NCBI GenBank assembly: GCA_965287045.1 | Contig: CBDIYR020000003.1 | Coordinates: 7,998,001 to 8,062,000, forward strand | Reading direction: 5' to 3' | DNA length: 64,000 nt | From: Carcharhinus amblyrhynchos | Lineage: Eukaryota | Shown here: positions 915 to 3,900 of the stretch, one piece after another | How positions within the stretch are numbered: the first letter of the stretch is position 1 | Layout of the letters: every line of letters begins with the position of its first letter | Made by a program: the position numbers

Positions 915-3900
915 TGATCCGAGTGTGGAGGGATTTTTGCAGCTAATATGAAGAAGTCGTGCTGTCAGTAGTTCAGTGGGAATAGGATTGAGGGATCAGG
1001 TTGTGAGTCTCATGGATAAGATGAGCTCAAGAGGATATGAGGGGAGGCAAGAGAGAAACTGGAGAAAGAGATGAGTTCAGACAAAGGGGAGAGTTAAAGG
1101 GGGTTTGTTCCAGTGGGTTAGAGGAAGGGAGGGAAGCAGCAGATTCTCTCAATCGTAGTGACAAAGGTCATGAATTTCTCCTCCATGAGCATTTATGGGG
1201 AGGAGAAGGTGGTGGAGAGACAAAGGGAGACCACTTCAAAAGGAATTCAGTTGTGTTGATGATATTAAAAAGATTCACATTACTGACTCTTTCAGCGAAT
1301 ATCGTTATGTGGTTCCTGTATGCCTGACTGCTGTTTGTCTTTCTCTCTTCCTCACTCGGTCCTTCATTCTTAGTTTTTATTTCTCACACTCCCGTTTTGA
1401 CCCCCCCCTATCAAACGCATTGAATTCGGTCTCAACTCACGTTGATATGCAATGGTGTTAATTATCCCCGAATATTATCATCTTCTGGATTGGCATTGAA
1501 CACAAACAGAGCTGGATTATTGTGTGTGTTGTATTGTGTGCGCGCGCACGTGCGAGCGCATGTGTGTAGTGTTGTGTGTGCATCTGTTTGTGTGTGTTGT
1601 GTTGTGTGTGTTTGTGTGTGTTGTGTATGTGTAGTNNNNNNNNNNNNNNNNNNNNNNNNNNNNNNNNNNNNNNNNNNNNNNNNNNNNNNNNNNNNNNNNN
1701 NNNNNNNNNNNNNNNNNNNNNNNNNNNNNNNNNNNNNNNNNNNNNNNNNNNNNNNNNNNNNNNNNNNNNNNNNNNNNNNNNNNNNNNNNNNNNNNNNNNN
1801 NNNNNNNNNNNNNNNNNNNNNNNNNNNNNNNNNNNNNNNNNNNNNNNNNNNNNNNNNNTTTCACTTTCTATTCTTTCTGCGTATGGGTTTTCTCCAGTTC
1901 TGCCTCTCGATTTTCACTCTGTTGTTCTCTCAGCTGGATGGAATTCGGTGCTCAACGGCTTGCTCTCCTGAAAGAGTCTGAGCAGCTGGAGAAAGCCTAA
2001 CCGAAGAGATACTGAAGCAGATACAGACACTTTAACCGTTGGATGTGTTTAATAGAATGTACATCACATTGCTCGGCGGTTGCAAAATATCACAACTTGT
2101 GTGGAGTCAGAACCTCATATTAGAACGAAGGAGCACTTTTTGTACGGGTCTCTACTGACCTAGTAATGCTGTGTGTCCCAATACACAGTGATACACCGCA
2201 CTGTCAGAGAACTGCGCATAGCGAATGGTTAAAGGAACAGTTCTTGCTGTGTTATCTAAAGTAGCATAAAGCAGCCGCTTCCCAAAGGCAGTCACATTGT
2301 TTCCAGTACTCGTTTTTTCCAATAGATATTGAGGATGTTGCTCTGGGTGCTGAATATACCAGAAGAAAACAGGAGAAGGATGTGATGTCGAATAATTGCA
2401 GTTTAGCTTCACACTCTCTCCGTAACTCACTCTGATACTCGGTGGATCCTGAAACACTGCCTCCGTTTCCTCACTGGCCTGAATAAGAAGGATGAATATC
2501 GATGTCAAACAGAGAAAATGCTGCATGATATCAGAATACAGAACACAGCAGCAATACAGGTTCAGACCCTGAGTAATAGGTTTATAAATCCTGCACCACC
2601 CACCCTCCAACTCAACAGTGGGACTAAATGAACCAAAACCTGAAATGTGAACTTGAATGTATATCTGTGCGACCGATGAGCGGAAATGGCAACTTAGATG
2701 ACAGAATGACAGGTTTTCTGACAGATGTCACTTTCCATCAGCCCTCCAATCAAAACCACTAAAATCAGTGACTTGATCATCACTTTGTTCTTTGTGGAGT
2801 TTGATGCGGGCCAATTAACTTCCCCGTCTCCTGTATTAAGTCAGTGATGAAAACTCAAAGATTCCTTTGGCTGTAAAGCTCTTCGTGAAGTCCTGATGTC
2901 ATGAACGGCGGTATATAAATGGAAGTCTTTCTTTATTACCCTTGAGAGACAGAGTGCGAATCCGAATCAGAAGATGGAATGGAAACGTTTACACTGAGTA
3001 CAGTTTTAACCATAACATCAAACTCAATATCAGGAGTTTCTTTCTCAGTATCTTTCTGACTCTGTATTTCTTGGTGTCACCCTACAGCTCTTCACCTCGC
3101 CAACCCTATCTCTGAACTTATGGTGTCCCTCACCATGTCCCTATACCGGGAAGGCAGATAGTGGGAGAAATATGCAGACAAATTATGCAATGAGAGTAAT
3201 GGAGATTTTTATTGTCTCGTATTCATTCCATGCAAGACGTCGGTAAAGGCTGCAACCGAATAGCTTCCTACGATTAATTTCAGATGCTGATATAATCCAA
3301 AATGTTGGAAAAAATACCAACATGGGAAGATTTGCTATTGTATCTTGTAATCTGGAAGAAAGCAGATGAGATTAGAGAAATAACTGGAGGGGAATATTCG
3401 GCAACACAGATCATACTTACTCATTAAGAGGTTCGAGATGAATAAATGCTAGACGGAAAACAACTAGCGACTTGATTCAGTGACATGTGTACTGAATGGT
3501 AGCAGTGAACCAGAATGTTTGAGTGATTCAGATAGATGACAGAAAATTCAATAAAGAATAAATAAATGTTTGAGCTACATTGCTGGGAGTAAGTTTACCA
3601 GTGCTGCTCCAATTATGTTTGCACAAGGCATATGGAGGTTAGCGAATGCAGTTGATGAAAAGATCAACAATTGTCTTAGAATCCGTACAGTGCAGAAGGA
3701 GGCAATCAGACCCTCCGACTCTGCAGTGACTCTCTGGGAGAGTATATTTCCCAGGTCCGCTCCCCTCCTCACTATCACCCCAAAGATTTATCCTGGTTAT
3801 TTATTCTAACCCACAAATTTCTGAGCAAGTTGGCATGCTCAATGCACCTAACCTGCGCATCATTGGACAGTCGGAGGAAAGGGTACACCCCACCCAGACA

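What the first reader, a model, noticed from the sequence alone, without database searches (positions are those of the whole stretch)
2135..2590. V gene with an apparently intronless leader that still carries its germline RSS
Seen: the other 14 intact V genes here have an 11-20 codon leader exon ending in a phase-1 intron, and most then have 2 nt plus 9 codons up to the conserved FR1 Gln. V1 reads ATG + 16 mostly hydrophobic codons + G|CC + 9 codons to Gln in one continuous frame, which is the spliced layout. A TATA-like TTTATAAA lies ~55 bp upstream, and the start context tgatatcATGca is identical to V17's. Established: leader-V introns are nearly universal in Ig/TCR V genes, and the intronless case I know (marsupial TCR-mu Vmu-j) is pre-joined to J. 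Inference: precise intron loss through a cDNA of a germline transcript, or cDNA gene conversion, leaving a rearrangeable V. Alternative: ttcag at 2483-2479 is an acceptor with a 1-nt insertion, and a decayed ACG-initiated leader lies at 2988-2940.
Basis: partly seen in the sequence, partly recalled or inferred. Interest (0 to 1): 0.75.

Follow-up and report, generated by a model that had tools for sequence, protein, structure and literature searches.

The report
TCR V gene with unsplit leader
One T-cell-receptor V gene segment in this cluster reads its signal peptide and V domain as a single exon instead of the usual two, a layout already known from chicken, and the sequence alone cannot show whether that leader is actually used.

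Summary
On the minus strand, ATG 2526 runs in one open frame through a hydrophobic 16-codon stretch into an intact V-set domain (to 2174) followed by a 23-spacer RSS (2173-2135). The 14 other V genes that have a leader all split it with a phase-1 intron.

Whether this is a clean intron loss stays open.
- **For:** the join falls in the cluster's usual register. The start context matches V17's start better than any of 2,238 other ATGs. A CCAAT-type hexamer lies at -225, as in 13 of 14 true promoters. No usable upstream leader exon exists.
- **Against:** the join also scores as a splice acceptor, one base out of phase. Reading real introns through gives a Met plus hydrophobic codons in 3 of 15 controls. 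V17 is a distant relative. V1's heptamer is the weakest of 16.

Single-exon leaders on RSS-bearing V genes are already described for chicken TRAV1 and TRGV1 (PMC10972964), so this is a new member of a known kind at most. My estimate is 0.4 for clean loss and 0.3 for a read-through pseudo-leader. Transcript data or orthologues would decide it.

The parts
2135..2173 (-). 23-RSS: heptamer CACAGCA 2173-2167, spacer 2166-2144 (23 nt), nonamer ACAAAAAGT 2143-2135
   Evidence: The heptamer matches the consensus at 5 of 7 positions, the lowest of the 16 V genes (the others match at 6-7). The nonamer matches at 7 of 9. The spacer ends in cccgt, as in the closest paralogues.
2174..2477 (-). V region: FR1 Gln 2451-2449, Cys 2400-2398, Trp 2361-2359, Cys 2187-2185
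   Evidence: Pfam V-set, 54.1 bits. Best solved relatives are TCR alpha and V-delta-1 chains. V1 keeps all 8 invariant and 3 near-invariant columns of the 14-gene alignment. AlphaFold2 block-mean pLDDT is 77-94 for residues 21-117.
2478..2526 (-). Contiguous putative leader: ATG 2526-2524 plus 15 codons plus G (49 nt), peptide MQHFLCLTSIFILLIQ(A)
   Evidence: The 8-residue hydropathy maximum is 2.80; the 14 true first leader exons span 1.81-3.86. A is at -3. Residues 1-20 have low pLDDT and no secondary structure. No signal-peptide predictor was available.
2479..2508 (-). Acceptor-like signature inside the leader: ttgAc (2508-2504), a pyrimidine-rich run, then ttcag (2483-2479) followed by G
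   Evidence: The in-window acceptor matrix scores it 7.8, in the top 1.1% of 8,225 AG sites. The log-odds for intron end against exon-1 end is +21.1 in the acceptor register and -1.5 in the exon register. None of 531 26-mers in true leader exons scores as high, but the pyrimidine part alone (1.0) is matched by 58 of 531.
2522..2533 (-). Start context TGATATCATGCA, identical to that of V17 (50544-50555 +)
   Evidence: two exact copies in the window; it is the best of 2,238 ATG contexts.
2581..2588 (-). TATA-like TTTATAAA, 55 nt upstream of the ATG
   Evidence: TATA-like motifs are uncommon upstream of the true leaders, so this adds little weight.
2746..2751 (-). GATTGG (inverted CCAAT-type hexamer), 225 nt upstream of the ATG
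   Evidence: CCAATC or GATTGG lies within 320 nt upstream of 13 of 14 true leader ATGs. V17's is at -232. The background rate is 0.26 per 320 nt.
2694..2780 (-). Upstream leader-like reading frame (ATG 2780, MIKSLILVVLIGGLM...), out of frame with V1
   Evidence: Hydropathy 3.55, ranked 9th of 65. The only phase-compatible donor is TCT|GTCATC at 2703, scoring 2.8. No CCAAT-type hexamer lies upstream. It sits in a stretch I recall, unverified, as a SINE copy.
2940..2988 (-).

Best explanation
V1 is a germline TCR alpha/delta-type V gene segment whose signal peptide and V domain lie in one exon. Transcription would start a few tens of bases upstream of ATG 2526. The 17-18 residue leader would be cleaved near ..IQA|SEE.., and the segment would rearrange through its 23-RSS. 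The leader intron that every other V gene here keeps has been removed at, or within one base of, the cluster's phase-1 position.

- **Shown:** the layout, the intact V domain, the RSS, and the lack of any usable split leader.
- **Inferred:** removal through a reverse-transcribed germline transcript (the standard model of exact intron loss), use of the ATG, signal-peptide cleavage, and rearrangement.
For: 1. One open frame runs from ATG 2526 to the RSS.
2. The ATG-to-join distance is 49 nt, the same as V17's first exon and inside the 34-61 nt range of the 14 true leader exons. After the join come 2 nt plus 9 codons to Gln, as in 11 of 14 paralogues. In the five read-through controls that had a Met, it lay 8, 9, 10, 13 or 29 codons upstream of the acceptor, never at 15-17.
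3. V1's ATG context was compared, anchored at the ATG, with all 2,238 other ATGs in the window. The single best match (9 extra contiguous bases; the next best is 6) is V17's true start. Fourteen of those 2,238 ATGs are true starts.
4. GATTGG lies at -225. CCAATC or GATTGG is present within 320 nt upstream of 13 of 14 true starts, against a background of 0.26 per 320 nt. None precedes ATG 2780 or ACG 2988.
5. A is at -3, as is a purine in all 14 true starts.
6. No intact upstream leader exon with a phase-compatible donor lies within 3 kb.
7. The V domain is conserved and folds with confidence, which argues against long disuse.
8. CAG|G, which carries most of the acceptor score, is also the usual sequence of an exon-exon junction (recalled). 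Two of 14 true leader exons end in CAG.
Against: - The 30 nt before the join classify as an intron 3' end in the acceptor register. The log-odds is +21.1; 13 of 14 true intron ends are positive and 14 of 14 true exon-1 ends are negative. None of 531 26-mers inside true leader exons reaches its acceptor score.
- Real intron ends read through in frame look like leaders in 3 of 15 controls.
- V17 shares only 26% of V-domain residues with V1. The closest paralogues, at 45-47%, share nothing with V1 around the ATG. So common descent does not readily explain the 12-base match. As an unanchored local match it is reached in 3.7% of 300 shuffles.
- V1's heptamer is the weakest of the 16.
- From memory only, about 2925-2540 looks like an old antisense SINE copy. 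If so, the CCAAT-type hexamer and the TATA-like motif are repeat-borne, and the repeat sits about 15 nt from the ATG.
- No signal-peptide predictor, transcript data or orthologue was available.
Confidence: 0.4

Rival explanations
1. Pseudo-leader. 2526-2479 is the 3' end of the old leader intron (branch point, pyrimidine run, CAG acceptor) that happens to be open and to hold an in-frame ATG. The true first leader exon has been lost or has decayed, perhaps after repeat insertions. One extra base after the acceptor puts it out of phase. V1 is then a leaderless ORF or pseudogene, or at best has recruited the intronic ATG secondarily.
For: - Acceptor score 7.8, in the top 1.1% of 8,225 AG sites; 8 of 14 true acceptors reach 7.8 or more in leave-one-out scoring.
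- Log-odds +21.1 for an intron end.
- ttgAc lies about 26 nt upstream of the AG.
- Exon 2 measured from 2478 is 30 nt to the Gln, against 29 nt in 11 of 14 paralogues.
- 5 of 15 controls have an in-frame Met, and 3 of these are hydrophobic.
- V1's heptamer is the weakest of the 16.
- Two strongly hydrophobic ATG frames lie upstream on V1's strand. ATG 2780 scores 3.55. ATG 4724 scores 3.45 and has 5 CCAAT/ATTGG pentamers in 4725-5080 against 0.88 expected.
- V genes that lack the leader exon are recorded elsewhere, for example duck V-delta-2.6 (PMC5278385, passage).
Against: - The start-context match to a true leader start.
- The CCAAT-type hexamer at the usual distance.
- The Met sits exactly where leader exons normally start.
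- The pyrimidine part of the acceptor score (1.0) is below all 14 true acceptors (2.6-13.0) and is reached by 58 of 531 leader-exon 26-mers.
- No upstream candidate has a phase-compatible good donor.
- The V exon shows no damage.
Confidence: 0.3
2. Imprecise intron loss. A genomic deletion removed the 3' part of the first leader exon, the donor and most of the intron. It fused the true start (ATG and its context) in frame to the intron's pyrimidine tail, which now encodes the hydrophobic core of the signal peptide.
For: It reconciles the two opposed signals: a leader-type start context and promoter hexamer, and an acceptor-type 3' end one base out of register. Likeness to V17's leader fades after roughly the first ten codons (and reading).
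Against: - It needs the 49-nt length and the near-canonical register to be coincidences.
- Deletion-type intron losses are held to be the minority (recalled).
- No breakpoint or microhomology can be shown without a split-leader relative.
Confidence: 0.12
3. V1 is still spliced. An upstream exon joins the acceptor at 2479|2478 in phase 0. The candidates are the repeat-borne ATG 2780 frame through the donor at 2703, or a leader exon shared with a neighbour, as in newt L-V-V units.
For: - The acceptor-like site.
- ATG 2780 has hydropathy 3.55, and TCT|GTCATC at 2703 is in phase 0 with 2478.
- Shared first leader exons are reported in a newt TRD locus (PMC12698447, passage).
Against: - That donor scores 2.8, near the bottom of the true-donor range of 0.7-12.4.
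- The product would carry about 12 extra residues after the hydrophobic core.
- The neighbour's leader exon (6091-6046) is phase 1 and would hit a stop codon after 2478.
- No CCAAT-type hexamer lies upstream of ATG 2780.
Confidence: 0.08

Closest known systems
[quoted passage not shown]
   Same: These are germline V segments with an RSS whose leader peptide lies in the same exon as the V region. All TRAV1 genes but 3 of 48, and most TRGV1 genes, are built this way. Many have weak RSS scores or doubtful signal peptides (PMC10972964, passages). V1 likewise has the weakest heptamer in its cluster.
   Different: In chicken this is a whole expanded subgroup and is known to be expressed. Here it is one gene among 15 or more with no expression data. 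No sequence relationship was tested, because no chicken sequence was fetched. The primary report (Gobel 1994) was not held.
Marsupial TCR-mu V-mu-j
   Same: The leader is not separated from the V region by an intron, which has been read as retrotransposition of a transcript (PMC6170632, introduction passage).
   Different: V-mu-j is pre-joined V-D-J with no RSS. V1 keeps a 23-RSS and lies inside the V cluster. No poly-A tail or flanking duplication was seen.
Canonical split-leader V genes (the 14 paralogues here)
   Same: Same V-set domain, same RSS type, same distance from the join to the FR1 Gln, and the same kind of promoter hexamer. The split leader is called canonical for all antigen-receptor genes (PMC12227049, passage).
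   Different: V1 has no first leader exon, no donor and no intron.
Human TRGV10 and TRGV11 (leader intron not spliced)
   Same: V genes whose leader intron is not removed, so they are not used productively. I saw only the title of Zhang et al. 1994 in the reference list of PMC7349638.
   Different: As I recall, those genes keep a first leader exon and a whole intron with a defective splice site. V1 has only 48 nt between the ATG and the join.
Leaderless 'supporting' TCR-delta V of shark NAR-TCR
   Same: A V exon without its own leader exon that begins at a splice acceptor (recalled). NAR-TCR as a doubly rearranging delta chain is described in PMC12227049 (passage).
   Different: V1's acceptor-like site is phase 0, whereas a J exon donor is phase 1 (recalled). 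No V-like hit lies on V1's strand in the 3 kb upstream before the next ordinary V.

Membership tests
TCR alpha/delta-type V gene segment (V-set plus 23-RSS) | V-set immunoglobulin fold with the conserved Cys, Trp and Cys | tested here: met
   Pfam V-set 54.1 bits. All 8 invariant columns are kept. pLDDT block means are 77-94 over residues 21-117.
TCR alpha/delta-type V gene segment (V-set plus 23-RSS) | Heptamer starting CAC, a 23-nt spacer and an A-rich nonamer directly after the V region | tested here: met
   CACAGCA, 23 nt, ACAAAAAGT. The heptamer matches at 5 of 7, the weakest of the 16.
TCR alpha/delta-type V gene segment (V-set plus 23-RSS) | Closest solved relatives are TCR alpha or delta V domains | tested here: met
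   Four of the 5 best PDB matches are TCR alpha or V-delta-1 chains, with E-values from 1e-13 to 9e-13; the fifth is a single-chain antibody.
Single-exon-leader V gene (chicken TRAV1 type) | ATG, leader and V region in one uninterrupted frame, with no donor-acceptor pair in use | tested here: inconclusive
   The frame is uninterrupted. An acceptor-like site lies at the join, and whether it is used cannot be told from DNA.
Single-exon-leader V gene (chicken TRAV1 type) | The N-terminal stretch is a working signal peptide | not testable with these tools
   Only hydropathy was measured: 2.80, inside the 1.81-3.86 range of true leader exons, with small residues before the likely cut. No predictor was on hand.
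Single-exon-leader V gene (chicken TRAV1 type) | Found in rearranged transcripts | not testable with these tools
   No transcript data or eukaryotic sequence collection was available.
Canonical split-leader V gene | An upstream first leader exon with an ATG, a hydrophobic core and a phase-1 GT donor | tested here: not met
   No candidate within 3 kb combines an ATG, a hydrophobic core and a phase-compatible donor.
Canonical split-leader V gene | A phase-1 acceptor 29 nt before the end of the FR1 Gln codon | tested here: not met
   The AG ends 30 nt before it, which is phase 0. The phase-1 position follows GG.
Processed (retrocopied) V, marsupial V-mu-j type | Pre-joined V(D)J without an RSS | tested here: not met
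   The RSS is present.
NAR-TCR supporting delta V | A phase-1 acceptor fed by an upstream NAR-type V-D-J on the same strand | tested here: not met
   The site is phase 0. No V-like hit lies on the minus strand between 2527 and 5600. The defining features are recalled, not read.

The most novel reading that the evidence does not exclude
V1 is a V gene that was given a new front end from non-coding DNA. After its split leader was broken, the pyrimidine tail of the old leader intron became the hydrophobic core of a new single-exon signal peptide. An antisense SINE copy directly upstream supplies the TATA-like and CCAAT-type promoter elements. That would be an independent, mechanistically visible origin of the single-exon leader known from chicken, in a cartilaginous fish.
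Probability: 0.15. Interest if true: 0.6.

Novelty: new member of a known kind. Interest (0 to 1): 0.35.

Why it matters
The split leader is treated as a hallmark of all antigen-receptor V genes (PMC12227049, passage), and gene finders rely on it. A working single-exon V in a shark-like TCR locus would have three consequences:
- It would show that the leader intron has been lost more than once in vertebrates.
- It would warn annotators that a V without a first leader exon is not necessarily a pseudogene.
- It would offer a case where the route of loss (exact excision or reuse of the intron tail) can be read from orthologues.

If it is only a read-through pseudo-leader, it is an ordinary decaying V gene. 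It is then a useful caution, because pyrimidine tracts translate into leader-like peptides.

Tried and rejected
- **Paralogue homology upstream of the V exon.** blastn (word size 7) of V1 plus 1 kb upstream against all 16 V regions matched only inside the V exon. Local alignments of three candidate starts against 14 true leaders gave nothing beyond the 12-base match. Anchored identity of the last 30 nt was 8-15 of 30 against intron ends and 8-14 of 30 against exon ends, which does not discriminate.
- **The ACG 2988 leader.** Rejected.
- **ATG 3013.** Its peptide is not hydrophobic.
- **ATG 4724 as V1's leader.** The donor at 47 nt is phase 2, the other GTs are weak, and none gives the V frame at 2478.
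- **Other acceptors.** Sites giving exon starts at 2477, 2473 and 2469 score -3.9, -2.8 and -4.8.
- **A phase-1 acceptor near 2642 feeding the long open frame.** This would put about 55 extra residues, including a second hydrophobic stretch, before the V domain. I rejected it as a gene model on reading.
- **Repeat identity of 2540-2925.** No second copy exists in the window (blastn at 1e-3; nhmmer at E up to 10 and a lax blastn). No tRNA-like head was found (ARAGORN; Rfam at E up to 10 over 2000-3600). The two tRNA-Lys hits elsewhere are unrelated. The SINE reading therefore rests on memory alone.
- **NAR-TCR supporting V.** Not met; see the membership test.
- **Literature.** Searches for phrases meaning 'no leader intron' found only the chicken paper and a methods remark in the newt paper. 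'Leader intron' with 'shark' gave 7 papers, none about a missing intron judging by their listing.
- **Left out.** The test of how acceptor-like the spliced junctions of the paralogues would look was not run, because it needs joined exons.
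Full report
**What the window is.** An in-window V-domain profile finds 20 V-like stretches on both strands: 16 of V length and 4 fragments. The V-length hits have 22-24-nt-spacer RSSs. V1's best solved relatives are TCR alpha and V-delta-1 chains. 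So this is a TCR alpha/delta-type V cluster. No call names the organism. I do not take it for human. An N run at 1636-1858 was left alone.

**The observation.** On the minus strand, ATG 2526-2524 opens a frame that runs without a stop to the RSS. The order is:
- 16 codons, MQHFLCLTSIFILLIQ;
- G|CC at 2478|2477-2476;
- nine codons to the FR1 Gln at 2451-2449;
- the conserved Cys, Trp and Cys;
- CACAGCA, a 23-nt spacer and ACAAAAAGT at 2173-2135.

Of the 15 other V-length hits, 14 have a first leader exon of 34-61 nt ending in a phase-1 intron of 80-660 nt. Eleven of those 14 then have 2 nt plus 9 codons to the Gln. TTTATAAA lies 55 nt upstream of the ATG. The 12-base start context occurs exactly twice in the window, at V1 and at V17.

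**The V exon is sound.** Pfam V-set scores 54.1 bits. V1 keeps all 8 invariant and 3 near-invariant columns of a 14-gene alignment. An AlphaFold2 model built on that alignment gives block-mean pLDDT of 77-94 for residues 21-117, against about 50 with no secondary structure for residues 1-20. That is what a leader outside the fold should look like. V1 is an outlier in the cluster: its closest paralogues share 45-47% of V-domain residues and V17 shares only 26%. Its heptamer, at 5 of 7 matches, is the weakest of the 16.

**Is a continuous leader more than chance?** I read the 15 other Vs unspliced through their acceptors in the V frame.
- Five have an in-frame Met before any stop, at 8, 9, 10, 13 or 29 codons upstream of the acceptor.
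- Three of the five are hydrophobic, with 8-residue hydropathy of 2.31-2.76 against V1's 2.80.
- Pyrimidine tracts translate into Phe, Leu, Ile and Ser, so an intron tail can look like a leader.
- The window holds 65 ATG frames at least as hydrophobic as V1's. Thirteen are true leaders, and V1's ranks last.

So the bare observation would arise by chance in roughly one V gene in five to seven.

**Signals that ATG 2526 is a real V gene start.**
- I compared V1's context, anchored at the ATG, with all 2,238 other ATGs in the window. The one best match (9 extra contiguous bases; the next best has 6) is V17's true start. Only 14 of the 2,238 are true starts.
- Among the 105 pairs of the 15 starts compared (V1 and the 14 true starts), every other pair with 5 or more matches consists of recognisable subfamily relatives.
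- CCAATC or GATTGG lies within 320 nt upstream of 13 of 14 true starts, mostly at -103 to -232, against a background of 0.26 per 320 nt. V1 has GATTGG at -225 and V17 has its copy at -232. Neither ATG 2780 nor ACG 2988 has one.
- A is at -3, as is a purine in all 14 true starts.
- The ATG lies 49 nt before the join. That equals V17's first exon and sits inside the family range.

**Signals that the 3' half of the 'leader' is an intron tail.**
- A matrix built from the 14 true acceptors scores ttattcag|GCC at 7.8. That is in the top 1.1% of 8,225 AG sites. Eight of the 14 true acceptors reach 7.8 or more in leave-one-out scoring.
- A log-odds of intron end against exon-1 end gives +21.1 in the acceptor register. 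Thirteen of 14 true intron ends are positive and 14 of 14 true exon ends are negative. In the exon register V1 scores only -1.5.
- None of 531 26-mers inside true leader exons reaches 7.8.
- A ttgAc sits about 26 nt upstream of the AG.
- The AG is one base upstream of the family's splice position, so the site is phase 0 and out of step with every leader exon here.

**Limits of the acceptor argument.**
- The pyrimidine part of the score is only 1.0. That is below all 14 true acceptors (2.6-13.0) and is reached by 58 of 531 leader-exon 26-mers.
- The score therefore rests mainly on CAG|G, which from memory is also the usual exon-exon junction sequence.
- Two of 14 true leader exons end in CAG.
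- The 12-base match has its own weakness. V17 is a distant relative, so descent does not easily explain it. As an unanchored local match it is reached in 3.7% of 300 shuffles.

**Upstream candidates for a lost first exon.**
- *ACG stretch 2988-2940.* Its donor scores -0.8, and 40.5% of 7,036 GT sites do as well. It has three basic residues, no likeness to true leaders and no promoter hexamer.
- *ATG 2780 (MIKSLILVVLIGGLM...).* It is strongly hydrophobic at 3.55. Its only phase-compatible donor, at 2703, scores 2.8.
- *ATG 4724.* It scores 3.45 and follows a dense group of CCAAT/ATTGG pentamers: 5 in 356 nt against 0.88 expected. It has no donor that gives the V frame.
- *Suspected SINE.* From memory, about 2925-2540 resembles an old antisense copy of a tRNA-derived SINE common in sharks. 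No tool could confirm this. If true, ATG 2780, the GATTGG and the TATA-like motif are repeat-borne, and the repeat ends about 15 nt from ATG 2526. That would weaken the promoter argument. It would fit either a repeat-supplied promoter or a repeat sitting in a former intron.

**Weighing.** Two signals of roughly one-in-a-hundred strength point in opposite directions: a leader-type start and an acceptor-type join. The layout (49 nt, then 2 nt plus 9 codons), the absence of any usable split leader and the undamaged V exon tip me towards a true single-exon gene. My estimates are:
- exact intron loss, 0.4;
- read-through pseudo-leader with a lost first exon, 0.3;
- imprecise deletion that kept the intron tail, 0.12;
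- continued splicing from an upstream exon, 0.08.

These are judgments, not computed posteriors.

**What is known.**
- The split leader is called canonical for all antigen-receptor genes (PMC12227049, passage).
- Chicken TRAV1 genes (all but 3 of 48) and most TRGV1 genes encode the leader in the same exon as an RSS-bearing V. Many have weak RSSs or doubtful signal peptides (PMC10972964, passages). A gene finder has a mode for them, which the newt paper mentions in its methods (PMC12698447, passage).
- The marsupial V-mu-j case is pre-joined (PMC6170632, passage).
- V genes without a leader exon are scored as pseudogenes in duck (PMC5278385, passage).
- My phrase searches found no such report for cartilaginous fish. 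Subscription papers and supplementary files were not searchable, and locus annotations in supplements may bear on this.
- If real, V1 is a new member of a known kind.

**Left undone.** No signal-peptide predictor or transcript data were available. The test of how acceptor-like the paralogues' spliced junctions would look was left out for that reason.

Noticed in passing
53300-53790 (+): One V among the TCR-type Vs is heavy-chain-like. It has a KGLEW motif, and its best solved relatives are antibody VH domains (E-values from 1e-19 to 1e-36). It has its own split leader and a 23-RSS. [quoted passage not shown]
   Followed up: partly
21086-21600 and 21960-22330 (+): Two short, divergent V-set exons (83 and 78 residues matched) lie about 500 nt apart, both with 23-RSSs. 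The first has a leader exon. The second has only an acceptor and no first Cys, and falls below the Pfam cut-off. The first gave weak TCR-alpha and light-chain matches and none to IgNAR. They may be a special V pair or a pseudogene.
   Followed up: partly
28100-30423 and 54254-56583: A 2.3-kb direct duplication at 93% identity. Each copy carries a tRNA-Lys(CTT) gene (28705-28780 and 54865-54939, minus strand), inside a V cluster.
   Followed up: partly
4674-5080 (-): An orphan leader-like frame (ATG 4724, 16 codons, hydropathy 3.45) follows 5 CCAAT/ATTGG pentamers in 356 nt, against 0.88 expected. No V exon follows it before V1.
   Followed up: partly
2527-2727 (-): The V frame stays open for 67 codons upstream of ATG 2526. 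Only 88 of 5,000 shuffles do as well, and the paralogues are open for 4-36 codons upstream of their acceptors. No explanation was found.
   Followed up: partly
532-935 and 47667-48294: Tandem repeat arrays with a period of about 84 nt are shared between the two places at 74-82% identity.
   Followed up: no
12192-13008 and 14274-15094: An inverted duplication at 91% identity holds two near-identical V genes with the same leader. V fragments lie beside them at 13988-14026 and 14096-14182.
   Followed up: no
3690-4030, 16880-17170, 30810-31080, 41580-42010, 42900-43170, 43640-43920: Several copies of tRNA-headed SINE-like repeats lie between the V genes. The family names are recalled, not tested.
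   Followed up: no
5145-5252 (+), 31808-31900 (+): Isolated V-exon fragments, probably remains of dead V genes.
   Followed up: no
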